DNA from: Promethearchaeota archaeon
GTDB taxonomy: Archaea; Asgardarchaeota; Lokiarchaeia; Sigyniarchaeales; SOKP01
DNA length: 42,639 nucleotides
Assembly: GCA_016839585.1 (NCBI GenBank)
Contig: JAEOTZ010000047.1
Coordinates: 1-42,639, forward strand
Direction: 5' to 3'
Positions 8,013 to 26,598 of this stretch are shown here, in pieces. Each line of letters starts with the position of its first letter. The stretch's first letter is position 1. Under the pieces are notes generated by a model that had not been told where the DNA came from, ran no database searches, and saw nothing but the letters and a program-made list of their open reading frames with translations. The position numbers were made by a program, and so were the translations under genes.

Positions 8013-8318
8013 CTGGAAGATGATGGCAAACACTGTGTTGTGTGTGGAGGGGAAAGCTTTAGAATAGCTAATGATGAATGGATGAATTTTTAGGACTTTT
8101 CGACCTAAAACATCATACGTGCATTTAGATTTGTAGAAACAGGGCAATTAAAGATGTGCGACGGATGTGGAGCTAAATATTTATTATGCAAACAATGTGG
8201 TGGTTTATTCACACGGGTTCATCCAGCCCTAGAAGCATGGGAAGTTAATCAAAGATGCCCCGCTTGTGGAGCCGAGGATCCTGATGTTAAAGCATGGGAC
8301 GGAGTCTCAGCTCGTTAA
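8013..8318 (+). CDS. Intron-split double zinc-ribbon protein (~91 aa after splicing; exons 8013-8086 and 8117-8318)
   Basis: Spliced product: (M)EDDGKHCVVCGGESFRIANDEWMKRAFRFVETGQLKMCDGCGAKYLLCKQCGGLFTRVHPALEAWEVNQRCPACGAEDPDVKAWDGVSAR, with four CxxC motifs. SD-like AGGTG at 8001; probable CTG start. Absent from the ORF track. Confidence 0.8.
8087..8116 (+). other. 30-nt bulge-helix-bulge mRNA intron
   Basis: GATG(8081-84)/CATC(8111-14) 4-bp helix, 3-nt bulges AAT and ATA, inner stem TTTTAGG/CCTAAAA, exon stem ATGAATG/CGTGCAT. It carries in-frame TAG and TAA; removal gives ATG AAA CGT. Confidence 0.85.
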
Positions 8319-19701: not shown

Positions 19702-21043
19702 TTATACTACCTCCTTAGTTATTTCTTTCAATTTTTCAGGTTCCAAACCTAAAGACATTAATATTAGTTCGCTAATATCATAATATTTCAGATTAGCGCC
19801 ACTTTCTTCAATTCCATCTTGTAAATTCGTTGAACAAAATGGACATGCCGATACAAGTGTATCTGCTCCAGTATCTTCAGCTTCCTCAATTCTAATTTTT
19901 GCAGTCTGTAGGGCAAATTCAGGAAAAGCGGATTTTACACCAGCTCCTGCACCACAACAATAAGCATATTCTTTTATACGCTCCATTTCTACAAATTTTA
20001 ACCCTGGAATTTTTTTTAATATATTTCTGGGAGGTTCATATATACCATTTGATCCAGTACGCTTAGGTTTTGGGGGTATGTTAATTGATACAAGAGGCAT
20101 CAAATTAACAATATCACCATCCCAATCTTTATATCTTTCAGCATTCCTTCCTAAATGACAGGGATCATGATAGGTTACGGTTATTGGTATTTCTTTTATT
20201 AGTTTTAATTTACCAGTATCGAGTAGCTCATCAAAAAATTCCACAGTATGTAATACTCTAAAAGTATATTCCCTATATAATGGATAATCTACTTTAAATG
20301 TATCATAGCATCCAGCACAGCTAAAAATGACCGTATCAATCCCCTTCGATTCAATGACATCTAAATTTTTATTAAGAAATTTTTTAAAAGTTTTCACATC
20401 TCCAGTTCGCAAAATAGGACTACCACAACAAAATTCCTCATCTTGTAATATATTAAATGGAATCCCTGCAGCCTTGAGGATACGAGCCGCTGCGATTGCC
20501 ATCTCTTGTCTTCGATAGGAAGAGGTGCAACCTACAAAATACAAGACTTTAGCATCTGGATCTAATCGAATATCTTTTGGTAACCAAGCCAACCTCTTCT
20601 CGTGAGGTTCATTGTAAGGATTATTGACTTTATTGGCAGCTTCTATATATTCTTGCTGTTTTGGCATTGGACCACCTCCTAATTCAACTAATTTTTCCCT
20701 AAGTTTCATTATAATTTCTAACGGTTCCAAAGTATTGAGAAATTTGCATGAAACAGCACAACTCCCACATTCAGTACATTTGTAAACAATTTCTCGTAAT
20801 TCTTCTGAAGGTTCAATTCTGCCTGTCTCTAATAACAAAGCTAAGATTATGCGACCTCCGCCGCTATATGGATGATAATTATAAATATCTATCGACGGAC
20901 ATGCAGTGGCGTATTTTTGACTTTTAATTTGAACTTGCGGTATCCATTTGCATTTCTCGGATAAGAGAGCCATTCTTTTTATCTATCGAGCATCTTAGAC
21001 ACCGTTTAATCATGTTATTATACTCATCTTCACTAAGTGAGAT
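19702..21043 (-). CDS. Intron-split Fe-S/CCG-domain oxidoreductase (GlpC/HdrD/GlcF-like); exons 21043 (or 21013)-20985 and 20953-19702
   Basis: CTECGSCAVSC, two CCG domains, YHDPCHLGR. After splicing the N-terminus reads MIKRCLRCSICKWIP...ACP, completing the first 4Fe-4S motif. Confidence 0.88.
20954..20984 (-). other. 31-nt bulge-helix-bulge (relaxed) mRNA intron
   Basis: Minus strand reads TG-CTCG-AT^A-GATAA...TTATC-CGAG-AA^A-TGC. Removal corrects a frameshift and gives TGC TCG ATA TGC. Confidence 0.85.
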
Positions 21044-21498
21044 TTAAATCACCTTAATTTATTCTTAATTTCTATGCTAAATCTTCATAACATATTTCAA
21101 GAATATTTTTGTTATACGGTTTTAATTTTTTTAATAAAATCAGATCTTGGTTTAATTTGGTTAAAAAATTATTTAAAACTTCCGCTTAAATGAAAAAAGA
21201 CTGAACATTAATGACCAACAATATTAAAAATAATTCGCATTAAGTGAATTGGTTCATTTAACCAATAACATCGCAACGAAATCGTAATGTGGCACAAATG
21301 TGGCATAAAACGGCATAACTCGAAGATATTATACTATTTTTGAATTATAAAAAAAATAGATACATAATGTCTAATTCTTATCTACTGGATTTATAACATA
21401 TCATCTCATTCCAAATCTTTTTTTATTTAAATATAAATGCCTATATTAATAGTTTAACAGTGGTAGTCTAATAAAATTAAAAAAATTGAAGACAAAAA

Positions 21499-22119
21499 AT
21501 GAATTTGCTTATATCTAATGATAATAAACTTAATTATTATGATGAGAATCTTGATCAAACTGAAAATAAAATAACTGTACTTTCTCGTCAGTTGAAAACT
21601 TATTTAAATTATAGGGAATCAACTATACTTGCGATATGTAGGGAATCTGAGAATTCTCTTGATATTTTAAAAAATCACTCAATTCAAAAATGGGAAACGG
21701 AACTAAACATACTTTACTTAGAATATTGTATATTTTTGGAGAAATATATTGGACCGAAAGAAAATCTTAAGATGAATGTCTTAATGTTGGCAAAAAAAGC
21801 GCTTTCTTTTCCAAATAGTCCAGAAGCAAGATCCTTTAAAAAATTTTTAAAAAATAAAATAAGATTGTGGGAATTATTACATATACTCTCAGCATTAGAA
21901 ATTCACACGAGACCTCAGTTATTAAAGCGGGTAATACAGATATTAACAAAATTATGTAATGATGAAAGCAAATTAAATGCAAATGTACCAGATTTTTTTC
22001 AACAACTTAAGCTAAATTATCAACAATTGGAGCGGGAGTATGATCAATTACTTTTAACAAAAGGAAAGGTGCAGATTAAGAGTAAAAATACAAATAAGAA
22101 AGTGATGGTTCGAGAATGA
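21499..22119 (+). CDS. Hypothetical helical protein, translationally coupled to the GIY-YIG gene
   Basis: 206-aa ORF with an ATGA overlap at 22116-22119. Confidence 0.7.
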   Translation: MNLLISNDNKLNYYDENLDQTENKITVLSRQLKTYLNYRESTILAICRESENSLDILKNHSIQKWETELNILYLEYCIFLEKYIGPKENLKMNVLMLAKKALSFPNSPEARSFKKFLKNKIRLWELLHILSALEIHTRPQLLKRVIQILTKLCNDESKLNANVPDFFQQLKLNYQQLEREYDQLLLTKGKVQIKSKNTNKKVMVRE

Positions 22120-25067
22120 TAGATACTAAGAATCAAGCTACTCGGAAAGGATTAAAAGGAGATCGCGTTGCAGTGTGTCCTAAATTTGGATGCAGTACGC
22201 TTGAAAAGTTAAAACCATTGAAACTTGGACTTTTTGGAATCCAGAAATATCCCAAATGCAAAGACCATAAAATTCATTTGGTTTTTGTGGATGAATTTAT
22301 TGGAGATTTCCTTCAATCTGTAAATGCATGTTTGTTTGATAATTCAATAGCGCCCCCTAAAGCCTTATTAGAATTGGTTAAAGAAGAGAGCCCTAAGAAT
22401 CTTCTATCCGTTTACCACAAATGGATGTATTGTTCTTCCCTAGGGAGAGGAGCCAAGATAGTGCCGGGATATTTGGACTCCTTATCAAGAGCCTATAAGA
22501 ATTCCTTAAACAAAAGACAGAAAAAGTCAATTGAAAATGATTCTTACATAAAAAAGAGGAATAAATTGATCACACTAGGATTTAGGAAAATAGAAATGGA
22601 GTACATTGAATTCTTAAAGAAGCTATATGATATGAATGAAAGGCTTTTTAATAAAGAAGAAATAAAACCTTTTCCCCGACTAGTTAAAAAGTTAATTCAA
22701 GATTGGTTAATCAAGTTTTTAAAAAATATAAATAAAGGATACTTACAAAACAAACAAATTAATAACTCAGATTCAATAAGTCTGAAAAAAACTAAATACG
22801 ATAAAATCCTACAAGCAAGAACTTGTATGCTAATATTGGGGAGATCTCCCTCAGAACTTCCAATAAAAATTTCTCCCTATGAGCTTTTCGCAACTTATCG
22901 TATATTTTTAGAAAACGATTTGTGCCACGAATTTGTTCCAGAAGAAAATAATTTGAAAATAGGAAGTAGAAAAGAGTATTTCTTACAAGAATTAAATAAT
23001 AATAACTCAAAAGTTGGAAATATCAAAGAGATTAATAGAAATACTTCTTTTATATTAAAAAACTGGGGAGAGTATTATGGAGTGATTTATATTTTAATAG
23101 ATAATAATAAAGATAATACTTTAAAATATAAAATGCTCTACATCGGGCAAACTATTCAAAAACTAAAAATAAGGTTCTACAGTCATATAAATTACTCACC
23201 CAATAAATATCTTAGAGAAGCTTTCGGAATGTATGGTAAAAAATTTTCCCTTCTCAAAATTGACAATAAGACTCTTCAGACTACAGGCGGAGAATTTACT
23301 ATGAAGGTTATTAAGAAGTGTAAAGACCTAGATAATTTGAACAAGTATGAAAAATTTTTTATTAAAAAATATAAATCATGTGTTTTGGATCATTATTTTA
23401 TTGGAAAAGATGGTAAAAGAAGACCGCTGTATGGATATAACATTAGTAGAGGCGGTGGTGGCTTTCCTGCAATAACTGGAGAGGAGCATGGTAGTTTCAT
23501 TCATATAGATCAAGATTCTCTTAAAGATTTATTAAAGAGAGGTTTTTCTGCTGAGGAAATTGCGAGAGAATTTGAGATTTCAATCCCAACACTGATTAGT
23601 AAAGTAGAATATTATTGGAAACACTTGGGAATAGAAAACCTACGTGATGCAAGGGCTAAATTTGGAGGAAACCAAGCTTTTCTCGATAGATTCGGAATTG
23701 TTGCTAAATCAGTTATAGGTGTTGAGTTAGATATCCCAAAGCTAATAGATCTTATTGAACAGGGATTATTTTTAAGTGAGTTAGAAGAAGAGTTAGGGAC
23801 TTCATTTTCAACAATTACAAAACATTTGCAAAAAATAGGTTTTAAAAATCTTACAGATGCAAGGATAAGATTAGGTGCTATGGAGACTTTTAGAAAAAGA
23901 TGGATTCAAAAAAAAGCATCAGCTACATTACGGGGGAGCGACCATCAAGATTATATTCAAATTAATAAAGAGGAAATCATAAAAATCATAAAACTGGATA
24001 TGTCCCCTAAAGAAATAGCAGATTATTTTGGTGTGTCAAGACCTACAATATTATCTCGTTTAAATGAATATTGGGGAGTAAATTTCTATGAAGCTAAACG
24101 ACTTTTTAAAATCTACCCTAAAGTAGATAAAATACTTGGAGAAAATATTATATCGAGCATTAGTGAATGTGCTATTAGTGATATTGATATAATATATTTA
24201 CAATCATTAATTTATGCCGGGTTTAATATGACACAAATTGCCTTAATTTATGAGAGAGGAGTAAAATGGATGCATGAATTTATGACAGAAATACTGGATA
24301 TTGATTTTACTCCCCATATGTATTTTCAGTCTGCGAAAGATTTATTTTATTGGAAACCACGTATAATCAATGCTATTATGGCAGATTATAAAATATCTGA
24401 TGTTGTGAGGGAGTTGCATGTCACTACATATTTTCGGGAATTAGGTAGAATTTGGAAAAAAGAGTATGATGAATTTAATCAAAACAATGATAATTTATAT
24501 AAATATCTGAAAAGATTTTATTTATTTTATCCATTTATGGACAAAAAATTATTAATAAACTTAATAGCTGAAAACAAAAGTTCCACTGAAATTGATGAGG
24601 AATATAAAAGAAAATGGGGAGTATATGGTTATACGGATTCAGAATATCATAAATTTCTAAGAAGATGTATATTTGTTTATAACAAAATAAACAATGACTA
24701 TCTTAATCAATTATTTATCAAATCTACATCAGCAAGAGATATCGACATTGCGTTTTTAAAAATTCTTCTTAGGAATACATCCACTATGCAAGAAATCGCC
24801 GAAAAATTACAAATAGGAATAGTTCAAACAAGGAAATTCTTAATAAATATTTTAGGAATTAATTATAAGGAAGCGGTTAGGGAATTCGTTTGGAAACCCG
24901 AATTATTTTCTTATATAGAAAAATATGATTCTATTTCAGATATCGCACATAATGAGGATTATAACCTCTCTACTCTTAGACATAGGTTCAGAGTAATATG
25001 GGCAGATGAATTAAAAAAATTAGGGTCTTTAAAGAAAGTGTATAGACATCTAAAAGAAAAATTTTAG
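22116..25067 (+). CDS. GIY-YIG endonuclease-domain protein with an N-terminal Cys/His domain and multiple C-terminal HTH repeats
   Basis: GVIYILID...LYIGQT...IRFYSH...YE...YNISRGG; CPKFGC...CKDH; repeats such as SAEEIAREFEISIPTL and SPKEIADYFGVSRPTI. Confidence 0.85.
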   Translation: MIDTKNQATRKGLKGDRVAVCPKFGCSTLEKLKPLKLGLFGIQKYPKCKDHKIHLVFVDEFIGDFLQSVNACLFDNSIAPPKALLELVKEESPKNLLSVYHKWMYCSSLGRGAKIVPGYLDSLSRAYKNSLNKRQKKSIENDSYIKKRNKLITLGFRKIEMEYIEFLKKLYDMNERLFNKEEIKPFPRLVKKLIQDWLIKFLKNINKGYLQNKQINNSDSISLKKTKYDKILQARTCMLILGRSPSELPIKISPYELFATYRIFLENDLCHEFVPEENNLKIGSRKEYFLQELNNNNSKVGNIKEINRNTSFILKNWGEYYGVIYILIDNNKDNTLKYKMLYIGQTIQKLKIRFYSHINYSPNKYLREAFGMYGKKFSLLKIDNKTLQTTGGEFTMKVIKKCKDLDNLNKYEKFFIKKYKSCVLDHYFIGKDGKRRPLYGYNISRGGGGFPAITGEEHGSFIHIDQDSLKDLLKRGFSAEEIAREFEISIPTLISKVEYYWKHLGIENLRDARAKFGGNQAFLDRFGIVAKSVIGVELDIPKLIDLIEQGLFLSELEEELGTSFSTITKHLQKIGFKNLTDARIRLGAMETFRKRWIQKKASATLRGSDHQDYIQINKEEIIKIIKLDMSPKEIADYFGVSRPTILSRLNEYWGVNFYEAKRLFKIYPKVDKILGENIISSISECAISDIDIIYLQSLIYAGFNMTQIALIYERGVKWMHEFMTEILDIDFTPHMYFQSAKDLFYWKPRIINAIMADYKISDVVRELHVTTYFRELGRIWKKEYDEFNQNNDNLYKYLKRFYLFYPFMDKKLLINLIAENKSSTEIDEEYKRKWGVYGYTDSEYHKFLRRCIFVYNKINNDYLNQLFIKSTSARDIDIAFLKILLRNTSTMQEIAEKLQIGIVQTRKFLINILGINYKEAVREFVWKPELFSYIEKYDSISDIAHNEDYNLSTLRHRFRVIWADELKKLGSLKKVYRHLKEKF

Positions 25068-25113
25068 TAGGATTAGAAATATCTTAAAAGTTTATATATT
25101 AGCTTATTAAAGA

Positions 25114-26598
25114 TTAATCCTTACTATTTTTTTCATCATCGTCAAAACATAACACCCCTGGATTTAATATGTTATTTGGGTCAAAAATCTTTTTTACTTT
25201 TTTTAAGGCAACTAGGGTTTGATCGCTGTGTCTTTCATACATTTCTTTTGCCCAAAAACTGTATGGGCGATTGAAAAAGGCACCATTATCCATAAGATTT
25301 CGACTAATTTCTAAGAATGTGTTTTTTAGATTAGTAGATAAATTGGTGTCATTAGGATCATAATAAAGATCAAATTCGCAATGATAGGCGGTTCCTTGAT
25401 TTATTGGTTGAATATAAATGCCTAGATCTTTCAACTTATTTGATTCTACTAATGAAGTATATTCAGGAATTTTTTCAAACTGACTGATAAAAAAAATATC
25501 TTGATAACCGCCTTTATAGTTGCATCTCCATGGATAAGAAGTTGCTTGAGATACACATTCGATAATTTTACTCTCATTTACGAAACTATTACTGTTTAAA
25601 TGTTCAAGCTTCATTTGTTTTAAAATATCACCAATATCACCCTCAAGGTATGCTAATTTATCTTCAGATAATTTCCCCCTACCACTAATAACATAAATTA
25701 AATTCCATTTTAATACAGAATTTGCTAAGTTTTCTATCTCTTGGGTAGTATTTTCTAATAGGGAAGCTAAACTTAAATTATTCAAAATGAATGTTTCATC
25801 ACATAATCTATATTTTATTAATTCATGTTGGAAATCCAGCAATTCTTGAATGTTATCTGATTGAAAATGAAAAACCCTTTGAATTGAAGGGAGTAACTCT
25901 AATTTTAGAGTAGCCCAAGTGACAACACCCAGACTTCCTTGAGCTCCTTGTATAACTCTAAAAGGGCTAAACTGAGTGGGTCCCATAGGATTCACATAAG
26001 CAATACCGACCTTTTGCTTTTCTTTAAAGGTTCCTGGACCTGCAGCAGTACCCGTTCGAAACAAATCTCCAGTACCAAATATTACTTCAGTGCATAATAA
26101 GGGATCAGAACTATCCCAATGATATCTAGGAATGGTAATAGGTTCTCGTTCAAGGGCGGATGTAACTATAGATTTAGTTCCTGTTGGAAAAAGTGGCATT
26201 AATAACCGTAATCCTTTTTCTTTTAACTTTGAAATGATATCATCAAAAGTGACTCCCGGTTCAACCATTAAAACGCGATTTTTCCTGTCTATGGAAAGAA
26301 TTTTTCTCATCTTGGAGAGATTTAATATAATACAATTTTCTTTTTGGGGTATAGTATCTCCATGATGTTTAAAAATTGAAATAGAACTGACTGGAATAAC
26401 AGAAAAATTTAATTTATTCGCTAATTTCAAAATTTTTTCTATTTCTTGAGTTTTTGATGGCCATACAACAAAATCTGGTAAATAACCCTCAGTAAAGCTC
26501 ATATCTTCAGAAAAAGCCTTAAGCGTCTTTGGATCATCAGAAATGTTCTTAGAACTGCATATTTTAGCTAGTTTATTACGAATAACTTCTTTTTTCAT
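25114..26598 (-). CDS. FAD-binding oxidoreductase (GlcD/VAO family)
   Basis: PDFVVWP, LNLSKMRKI, VEPGVTF, GAQGSLGVVT, KKIFDPNNILNPG. Start probably MKKEVIR. Confidence 0.9.
   Translation of the reverse strand: MKKEVIRNKLAKICSSKNISDDPKTLKAFSEDMSFTEGYLPDFVVWPSKTQEIEKILKLANKLNFSVIPVSSISIFKHHGDTIPQKENCIILNLSKMRKILSIDRKNRVLMVEPGVTFDDIISKLKEKGLRLLMPLFPTGTKSIVTSALEREPITIPRYHWDSSDPLLCTEVIFGTGDLFRTGTAAGPGTFKEKQKVGIAYVNPMGPTQFSPFRVIQGAQGSLGVVTWATLKLELLPSIQRVFHFQSDNIQELLDFQHELIKYRLCDETFILNNLSLASLLENTTQEIENLANSVLKWNLIYVISGRGKLSEDKLAYLEGDIGDILKQMKLEHLNSNSFVNESKIIECVSQATSYPWRCNYKGGYQDIFFISQFEKIPEYTSLVESNKLKDLGIYIQPINQGTAYHCEFDLYYDPNDTNLSTNLKNTFLEISRNLMDNGAFFNRPYSFWAKEMYERHSDQTLVALKKVKKIFDPNNILNPGVLCFDDDEKNSKD

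What the first reader, a model, noticed from the sequence alone, without database searches (positions are those of the whole stretch)
20945..21013. Second BHB intron sits inside a 4Fe-4S CxxCxxC motif
The called ORF starts MALLSEKCKW and lacks two Fe-S ligands, which are encoded upstream in another frame (MIKRCLRCS). A 31-nt insert bounded by CTCG/CGAG, bulges ATA and AAA and inner stem GATAA/TTATC explains this. Canonical cleavage gives CLRCSICKW exactly. The exon stem is weak (two G-U pairs), so the motif is relaxed, implying a broad-specificity splicing endonuclease. Its sequence is unrelated to the first intron, which suggests an independent origin.
Basis: partly seen in the sequence, partly recalled or inferred. 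Interest (0 to 1): 0.9.

Follow-up and report, generated by a model that had tools for sequence, protein, structure and literature searches.

The report
tRNA-type mini-intron in Asgard Fe-S gene
A 31-base hairpin with the shape cut by the archaeal tRNA-splicing enzyme interrupts the cysteine motif of an iron-sulfur enzyme gene in an Asgard (Loki-type) archaeon. [quoted passage not shown]

Summary
On the minus strand, 31 nt (window 20954-20984) separate codons for MIKRCLRCS-I from CKWIPQ. Orthologues up to 97% identical read CLRCSICKW without a break.

The insert forms a canonical bulge-helix-bulge (BHB) motif. Cutting after the 2nd base of each bulge restores the frame exactly.

About 22 distinct variants (29 or 31 nt, two cutting registers) occupy the same codon site in other Promethearchaeota contigs. 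In nearly all, the same rule gives CSICKW. The inner helix covaries. Exon 1 stays coding (166 synonymous vs 22 non-synonymous codon differences). Exon 2 has dN/dS 0.05-0.09.

The genome encodes two EndA paralogues (two-subunit type) and RtcB.

The weak proximal exon stem is backed by a 9-bp distal exon-exon helix, built largely with the codons CGG and CCG that intronless alleles rarely use.

Intron presence is patchy on the gene tree (at least 11 changes). Sister alleles differ by a swapped 5' module that ends 15-50 nt past the intron. In some lineages this module includes a GIY-YIG-like gene cassette.

No RNA run was available, so splicing itself is inferred.

This scan had already flagged similar mini-introns in other genes of the same genome.

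The parts
20985..21013 (-). Exon 1 counted from ATG 21013: MIKRCLRCS plus the first 2 nt of the Ile codon. It carries the first two Cys of the CxxCxxC motif. It may start earlier, at ATC 21043, which lies 5 nt after the SD-like GGTGA 21053-21049.
   Evidence: Conserved as coding sequence in 12 distinct exon-1 versions (166 synonymous vs 22 non-synonymous codon differences).
20954..20984 (-). 31-nt BHB intron: A + GAUAA + a 14-nt loop with a small AGA/UCU stem + UUAUC + CGAG + AA.
   Evidence: Absent from orthologues. Canonical parse. Boundary from DNA contigs. No other copy in the genome.
19702..20953 (-). Exon 2: last base of the Ile codon, then CKWIPQ... to the stop. It holds the rest of the dicluster domain and two CCG domains (HdrD/GlcF/GlpC/TfrB-like Fe-S subunit).
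   Evidence: Intact in all full-length intron-bearing relatives. dN/dS 0.05-0.09.
20987..20990 (-). Central helix H, exon strand (CUCG).
   Evidence: Pairs with 20956-20959.
20956..20959 (-). Central helix H, intron strand (CGAG).
   Evidence: Varies U-A to U-G in relatives.
20984..20986 (-). 5' bulge AUA. The predicted cut lies between 20985 and 20984.
   Evidence: The cleavage rule (between the 2nd and 3rd bulge residues) is from PMC2738675.
20953..20955 (-). 3' bulge AAA. The predicted cut lies between 20954 and 20953.
20979..20983 (-). Inner helix h', 5' arm (GAUAA).
   Evidence: Covaries with 20960-20964: 4 of 5 pairs show changes on both sides in class B.
20960..20964 (-). Inner helix h', 3' arm (UUAUC).
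20996..21004 (-). Distal exon-exon helix, exon 1 strand (CGGUGUCUA: codons Arg-Cys-Leu).
   Evidence: The codon before Cys1 ends in G in 18 of 20 intron-bearing alleles and in 1 of 33 intronless alleles.
20938..20946 (-). Distal exon-exon helix, exon 2 strand (UGGAUACCG: codons Trp-Ile-Pro).
   Evidence: The Pro codon is CCG in most intron-bearing alleles and mostly CCA or CCT in intronless ones.
21499..25067 (+). Context: a two-gene cassette (206-aa ORF plus a 983-aa protein with many HTH hits and a weak GIY-YIG hit), inserted in the spacer upstream of exon 1. It travels with exon 1 and the intron in some lineages.
   Evidence: Empty site in L104.

Best explanation
Window 20954-20984 (minus strand) is a genuine 31-nt bulge-helix-bulge intron in the pre-mRNA of an HdrD/GlcF-like Fe-S oxidoreductase subunit of a Promethearchaeota (Asgard) archaeon. 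The transcript folds so that exon CUCG pairs with intron CGAG, flanked by two 3-nt bulges, a 5-bp intron hairpin and a distal 9-bp exon-exon helix. The two-subunit EndA cuts after the 2nd base of each bulge and RtcB joins the exons. This recreates the Ile codon and the motif CLRCSICKW that supplies ligands of a 4Fe-4S cluster. Shown here: the insert, its exact boundaries, its structure and covariation, selection on both exons, and the presence of the enzymes. Inferred: cleavage and ligation in the cell. The intron is one member of a family of 29- and 31-nt introns at this one codon site, and it spreads or is lost by recombination of a 5' gene module.
For: (1) Close orthologues (90-97% identical: P0002-P0006; G012) and 29 loci from other species' genomes read C.RCS.CKW without a break. 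(2) About 22 distinct inserts lie at the same site in independent assemblies, in two registers: CUCG|AUA..CGAG|AAA, and UCGA|UAA..UCGR|AAU or AUU or UGU. In 18 of 21 parsed variants, plus L141, the strict rule gives CSICKW; the other three deviate by one inner bulge or one central mismatch. (3) Pairing is 92-94% in the proposed structure against 21-52% when the partners are slid. Three (A/C) and four (B) inner-helix pairs change on both sides. L103 has a wholly different hairpin of the same length. (4) All full-length intron-bearing genes are otherwise intact at 416 codons from CKW. dN/dS is 0.05-0.09 at dS 0.9-2.5, and exon 1 shows 166 synonymous vs 22 non-synonymous codon differences. (5) The downstream Met differs between variants or is 30 residues further on (the 394/396-aa database entries), so no consistent unspliced protein exists. 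(6) The genome has two EndA paralogues, one with best PDB matches to the catalytic subunits 3p1z_B and 2zyz_B and one lacking the His, plus RtcB. Asgard EndA is reported as the (alpha-beta)2 type with the L1 loop (PMC5829648). (7) Shuffled inserts rarely give an exact canonical BHB (163 of 200,000). The fold z-score is -2.53.
Against: There is no RNA evidence, because no RNA run holds the stretch. The proximal outer helix is only two G-U pairs. One variant (L100) has a U-U mismatch in the central helix, and L039 and L057 need a 1-nt bulge in the inner helix. The exon side of the central helix was fixed by my search pattern, so its invariance carries no information. Relatives are not independent, so the counts overstate the support. 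A genome-wide ORF-merging census could not separate true introns from gene boundaries.
Confidence: 0.85

Rival explanations
1. Complement on origin rather than a strict rival. The intron is the immunity half of a collaborative-homing pair. The adjacent free-standing GIY-YIG-like protein would cut intronless alleles at or near the CxxCxxC-coding site. Repair from an intron-bearing donor would then copy the cassette, exon 1, the intron and a short stretch of exon 2. The intron splits the target site and is tolerated because EndA removes it from the mRNA.
For: Window vs L100: the cassette, spacer, exon 1 and intron are about 89% identical in DNA, while the Fe-S and FAD gene bodies are about 74% identical. 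In three lineages an intron-bearing allele and its intronless sister are 93-98% identical in the gene body but unrelated upstream, and the excess mismatches stop at +14, about +50 and about +32 of exon 2. Where seen, the cassette or its 206-aa gene always sits next to an intron-bearing allele (window, L083, L098, L100, L057). It was never seen next to the intronless alleles examined, L119 and L121. Known analogues are in phages (PMC2790892, PMC6083498).
Against: Most intron-bearing alleles have no cassette: L104 is an exact empty site, and it is also absent in L039, L113 and all class A and C loci. The GIY-YIG hit is below the Pfam cut-off (19.2 vs 22.6 bits). The two paralogues of the 983-aa protein in this genome have no obvious BHB-split neighbour, though that test was weak. 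Short tracts can also arise from ordinary recombination plus selection to keep the exon-exon helix with the intron. Choosing sisters by gene-body identity biases towards 5' breakpoints.
Confidence: 0.25
2. The insert is not removed. The gene is a pseudogene, or it makes an N-terminally truncated protein from the internal Met (MALLSEKCKW) that lacks two cluster ligands.
For: An ATG inside the insert opens the 423-aa ORF in the window. There is no RNA proof of splicing.
Against: Exon 1 is kept in frame with mostly synonymous change across 12 versions. The internal start is not conserved: class A variants have a stop in that frame and their next Met lies 30 residues downstream. BHB geometry and exact excisability are kept in two registers and two lengths. 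dN/dS is 0.05-0.09.
Confidence: 0.07
3. Translational recoding: ribosomes bypass the 29-31 nt (as in T4 gene 60) or shift frame.
For: There is a hairpin in the gap, and class A variants have a stop codon two codons after the Ile codon.
Against: No landing codon matches the take-off codon AUA: the codons before UGC are AAA, GAA, AAU or GUG. The conserved feature is the BHB with two symmetric 3-nt bulges, which bypassing does not require. A +1 or -1 shift cannot remove the intervening residues.
Confidence: 0.02
4. Assembly or sequencing artefact.
For: None found.
Against: The same or related inserts occur in more than 20 independent contigs from NCBI, JGI and ENA assemblies.
Confidence: 0.01

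Closest known systems
cbf5 pre-mRNA introns of Crenarchaeota (Watanabe 2002; Yoshinari 2006; Yokobori 2009, PMC2738675)
   Same: A short BHB-type intron in an archaeal protein-coding gene. It sits in the codons of a functionally essential motif. The predicted cuts lie between the 2nd and 3rd bulge residues. The host has a hetero-oligomeric EndA. Presence is patchy, with gain and loss.
   Different: A different gene (Fe-S oxidoreductase subunit) and phylum (Asgard). The central BHB is fully canonical with a distal exon-exon clamp. Several length and register variants occupy one site. There is evidence of allele replacement by recombination rather than simple loss. Splicing here has not been shown experimentally.
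Archaeal tRNA and rRNA BHB introns, including the intron-rich tRNA genes of Asgard archaea (bioRxiv 10.64898/2026.10.13.758758; Marck and Grosjean 2003, from my own knowledge)
   Same: The same hBHBh' geometry, the same presumed enzymes (EndA, RtcB) and a similar mini-intron size.
   Different: The host RNA is an mRNA. The exon half of the motif must be built from codons, here through synonymous codon choice (CGG, CCG).
Collaborative or trans homing of introns with free-standing endonucleases in phages (mobE with I-TevIII, PMC2790892; F-CphI with the psbA intron, PMC6083498)
   Same: An endonuclease-like gene lies next to, not inside, an intron. The module is co-inherited, with short co-conversion tracts in the flanking exon.
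   Different: Those introns are self-splicing group I introns. Here the intron would be a protein-spliced BHB intron, the nuclease assignment is weak, and cleavage is untested.
HAC1/XBP1 unconventional mRNA splicing (IRE1 plus RtcB or tRNA ligase; from my own knowledge)
   Same: Non-spliceosomal, protein-catalysed removal of a short mRNA intron that changes the reading frame, followed by ligation by a tRNA-type ligase.
   Different: A different endonuclease and recognition motif, and a regulated stress response. No regulation is shown here.

Membership tests
Archaeal EndA-dependent BHB intron | A 4-bp central helix flanked by two 3-nt bulges on opposite strands | tested here: met
   CUCG/CGAG with bulges AUA and AAA. 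Kept in 18 of 21 parsed variants plus L141.
Archaeal EndA-dependent BHB intron | Flanking helices h (exon) and h' (intron) | tested here: met
   h' has 5 bp with compensatory changes. Proximal h is only 2 G-U pairs, but a 9-bp distal exon-exon helix is present. In classes A and C, h has 3-4 bp.
Archaeal EndA-dependent BHB intron | Cuts after the 2nd bulge nucleotide give a functional product | tested here: met
   In silico the cuts give CLRCSICKW, identical to the orthologues. The rule is from PMC2738675.
Archaeal EndA-dependent BHB intron | The host encodes the splicing endonuclease and the RtcB ligase | tested here: met
   Two PF01974 genes (C2, C39) and one PF01139 gene (C7).
Archaeal EndA-dependent BHB intron | The intron is excised and the exons ligated in RNA | not testable with these tools
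   No RNA run holds the stretch.
Broad-specificity (alpha-beta)2 EndA | Two distinct subunits, one catalytic and one structural | tested here: met
   The 201-aa paralogue keeps Tyr/His/Lys-type motifs and best matches 3p1z_B and 2zyz_B. The 200-aa paralogue lacks the His.
Broad-specificity (alpha-beta)2 EndA | L1 (CSL) loop insert in the catalytic subunit | not tested
   Reported for Asgard in PMC5829648. Not aligned here.
cbf5-type archaeal pre-mRNA intron | The host gene is cbf5 | tested here: not met
   The host is a CCG/Fer4_8 Fe-S protein.
Homing-endonuclease-associated intron (collaborative homing) | An adjacent free-standing homing endonuclease gene | tested here: inconclusive
   The GIY-YIG hit is 19.2 bits, below the 22.6 cut-off. 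The cassette is present in 5 class B loci and absent from most intron-bearing loci.
Homing-endonuclease-associated intron (collaborative homing) | Co-conversion tracts centred on the intron site | tested here: met
   Excess divergence ends at +14, about +50 and about +32 of exon 2 in three lineages.
Homing-endonuclease-associated intron (collaborative homing) | The enzyme cleaves the intronless allele and the intron protects | not testable with these tools
   Needs a biochemical assay.

The most novel reading that the evidence does not exclude
A protein-spliced BHB mini-intron acts as the immunity element of a mobile module in Asgard archaea. A free-standing GIY-YIG-like endonuclease next to the gene would cut intronless alleles in the CxxCxxC-coding site. 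Repair would copy the endonuclease cassette, exon 1, the intron and the first 15-50 nt of exon 2, including the codons that form the exon-exon helix. BHB introns would then invade protein-coding genes by homing, in the way group I introns do in phages. This would offer a route for intron gain in mRNAs of the closest archaeal relatives of eukaryotes.
Probability: 0.25. Interest if true: 0.9.

Novelty: new member of a known kind. Interest (0 to 1): 0.75.

Why it matters
In the literature I could search, experimentally supported introns in archaeal protein-coding genes amount essentially to cbf5 in Crenarchaeota. Here an Asgard archaeon carries one in a metabolic enzyme gene, inside a metal-ligand motif. 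The comparative record is rich: several intron versions at one site, exon codons recruited to build the splice structure, and intron-bearing and intronless alleles coexisting in the same sediments. Other notes of this scan report similar inserts in other genes of the same genome. Together these point to routine mRNA splicing by the tRNA-splicing machinery in the archaeal lineage closest to eukaryotes. They also show how such introns move between alleles. Practically, public databases hold many wrongly truncated versions of this protein (394, 396, 417, 423 and 426 aa) because gene callers ignore the intron.

Tried and rejected
- **RNA evidence:** The look-up of sequencing runs listed no RNA holder. 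Read laying could therefore use only DNA contigs.
- **Short folds:** the 51- and 74-nt pieces were no better than shuffles. Only the 71-nt piece with the distal helix stands out.
- **Window scan for other split genes:** a permissive BHB plus ORF filter gave 514 mostly spurious hits.
- **Genome-wide census:** I compared canonical cuts with shifted cuts. There was no enrichment (1588 vs about 1570), because adjacent co-directional genes mimic exon pairs. Stricter filters recovered only a few known cases (E2, thioredoxin). I give no genome-wide count.
- **Other copies of the intron:** a blastn-short search of the genome found none.
- **Known RNA families:** no tRNA or Rfam family in the window.
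- **Paralogues of the 983-aa protein (C63, C53):** no convincing BHB-split gene nearby. This was a weak test.
- **Translational bypass:** rejected for lack of matching take-off and landing codons.
- **P0097 (409 aa):** suspected to hold another insert, but it is intronless with a miscalled start.
- **L113 vs L138 and L005 vs L139:** these sister pairs were too divergent to place a breakpoint.

Full report
**What is there.**
The gene lies on the minus strand. ATG 21013 opens MIKRCLRCS and then leaves the frame. The called 423-aa ORF (20973..19702) starts MALLSEKCKW in another frame. It is a CCG-domain Fe-S protein whose Fer4_8 domain falls just under the cut-off. It resembles HdrD, GlcF, GlpC and TfrB. 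It sits between two GlcD-like FAD oxidase genes.

- Central helix: CUCG (20990-20987) pairs with CGAG (20959-20956).
- Bulges: AUA and AAA.
- Inner stem: GAUAA with UUAUC.

Cutting after the 2nd base of each bulge is the rule used for cbf5 introns (PMC2738675). It removes 20984..20954 (31 nt) and yields CLRCSICKW.

**Orthologues.**
The nearest database proteins (90-97% identical, 436 aa, Promethearchaeota) read ...MIQRCLRCSICKWIPQ... without a break. So do 29 loci from other species' genomes, 26 of them in the same genus. A DNA alignment with the 93%-identical G012 allele shows a clean 31-nt gap. Contigs of intronless relatives from the same sediment metagenomes match exon 2 up to exactly 20953 and then continue into C-S-I codons.

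**A family of inserts at one site.**
Several hits had odd N-termini: MNRNPLFHSECKW, MDRIYVFHSECKW and the 394/396-aa forms. Their DNA carries an insert at the same codon. A pattern scan of metagenome and genome contigs raised this to about 21 distinct variants, and L141 adds one more. They fall into three classes:
- Class A: 31 nt, UCGA|UAA|AUGAA..UUCAU|UCGG|AAU.
- Class B, the window's class: 31 nt, CUCG|AUA|..|CGAG|AAA.
- Class C: 29 nt, UCGA|UAA|..|UCGA|AUU or UGU.

The cutting register differs by one base between classes B and A/C, and the lengths differ. Even so, the strict BHB rule gives CSICKW in 18 of 21 parsed variants and in L141. The other three deviate by a single mismatch or a 1-nt bulge.

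In the proposed structure, 92-94% of cells pair, against 21-52% when the partners are slid. Three (A/C) and four (B) inner-helix pairs change on both sides. L103 has an unrelated hairpin of the same total length. The classes share an AGA...UCU core in the loop, so they are probably one old intron that has diverged. Shuffled inserts meet the exact-excision BHB test in 163 of 200,000 trials.

**Selection.**
All full-length intron-bearing genes are otherwise intact. Between intron-bearing alleles, exon 2 has dN/dS 0.05-0.09 at dS of about 0.9-2.5. The 10 codons of exon 1 show 166 synonymous and 22 non-synonymous codon differences. No downstream start codon is shared by the variants. A truncated, unspliced product is therefore not what selection maintains.

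**The exon stem.**
However, a 9-bp helix between CGGUGUCUA (Arg-Cys-Leu codons) and UGGAUACCG (Trp-Ile-Pro codons) closes the whole element. It appears in the minimum-energy fold of nearly every variant (z = -2.53). The codon before Cys1 ends in G in 18 of 20 intron-bearing alleles and in 1 of 33 intronless ones. The Pro codon is mostly CCG in the former and CCA or CCT in the latter. These positions were not part of my search pattern.

**Machinery.**
The genome has two EndA paralogues. One is catalytic-like, with best PDB matches to the alpha subunits 3p1z_B and 2zyz_B. The other lacks the His. There is also one RtcB gene. This fits the (alpha-beta)2 type reported for Asgard archaea (PMC5829648).

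**Distribution and movement.**
On a tree of 142 exon-2 sequences, intron presence needs at least 12 changes, 11 of them forced by well-supported branches. This is not simple loss:
- The window and G012 are 93-98% identical through the gene body, but only about 60-70% identical in exon 1 and unrelated upstream.
- L083 and L104 differ from G012 in exon 2 only at +2, +5, +11 and +14, and are then 97-98.5% identical.
- L100 against its intronless sister L121 shows the break at about +50. L039 against L137 shows it at about +32.
- Conversely, the window and L100 share about 89% DNA identity over a 3.5-kb cassette, the spacer, exon 1 and the intron, but only about 74% over the Fe-S and FAD genes.

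The cassette encodes a 206-aa ORF and a 983-aa protein with HTH hits and a weak GIY-YIG hit. It lies next to intron-bearing alleles in five contigs and is absent from L104, which is an exact empty site. It is also absent from the class A and C loci and from the intronless loci L119 and L121, where the FAD and Fe-S genes abut or overlap.

So the intron travels in a 5' module that recombines between alleles. Whether the endonuclease-like protein drives this (collaborative homing, as in phages) is open. I put it at about 0.25.

**Literature.**
Searches found mRNA BHB introns only for cbf5 and related reports, and nothing on Asgard protein-coding genes. A 2026 preprint treats Asgard tRNA introns only. 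Earlier notes of this scan report similar inserts in other genes of the same genome. I did not verify those.

**Verdict.**
It is very probably (0.85) a true BHB intron in an mRNA, and therefore a new member of a known but very rare kind. It has added features: a distal exon clamp, register variants and modular recombination. Direct RNA proof is missing.

Noticed in passing
window 21054-25113; L104:3766-4002: The 206-aa ORF plus 983-aa HTH/GIY-YIG-like gene cassette is an insertion into a roughly 240-nt spacer. L104 has the same spacer uninterrupted (...taatcctact | ...ttttcatttaagcggaag...). L100 carries the cassette at about 89% DNA identity in a host operon that is only about 74% identical.
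   Followed up: partly
window 8087-8116 (+): This is the other candidate BHB intron of the window: GAUG|AAU|UUUUAGG..CCUAAAA|CAUC|AUA, 30 nt. I read it by eye only. Its sequence is unrelated to the intron studied here.
   Followed up: partly
window 21041-21053 (-): The SD-like GGTGA lies 5 nt before an in-frame ATC, directly after a TAA, and 35 nt before ATG 21013. The residues between (SLSEDEYNN) resemble the N-terminus (EEEYQK) of orthologues. The gene may therefore start at a non-AUG codon. L140 has ATT at the equivalent place.
   Followed up: partly
window 25114-25160 (-); L119:5985-6020; L140:500-560: In intronless alleles the upstream FAD gene overlaps or abuts the Fe-S start. In the window the FAD gene ends in a short extension (..CFDDDEKNSKD*), the start of which resembles the old junction sequence. 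L140 looks like the uninterrupted precursor of the class B arrangement.
   Followed up: partly
L106:2462-2518 and L106:5549-5603: One contig carries two paralogous FAD/Fe-S operons. Each Fe-S gene has an intron at the same codon, but of a different class (A, 31 nt; C, 29 nt).
   Followed up: partly
proteins P0028, P0029, P0039, P0086, P0094, P0099-P0105, P0108, P0110, P0111, P0113, P0114, P0117-P0120: Public protein entries of 394-426 aa for this family appear to be truncated or given false N-termini because gene callers read through or skip the intron. I checked the DNA for P0028, P0029, P0039, P0094, P0111 and P0120; the rest is inferred from their N-termini. P0097 (409 aa) is instead an intronless gene with a miscalled start.
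   Followed up: partly
G000 C63:23946-26588 (+) and C53:5638-7455 (-): Two further large ORFs share the N-terminal 280-370 residues of the 983-aa protein (36-37% identity). Relatives occur in only 6 of 53 other genomes of the genus, which suggests a mobile gene family with a common N-terminal module.
   Followed up: partly
window 20953 (read laying, runs X1, X3, X5, X6): Intronless alleles and class A intron alleles of related populations coexist with the window's allele in the same marine sediment metagenomes.
   Followed up: partly
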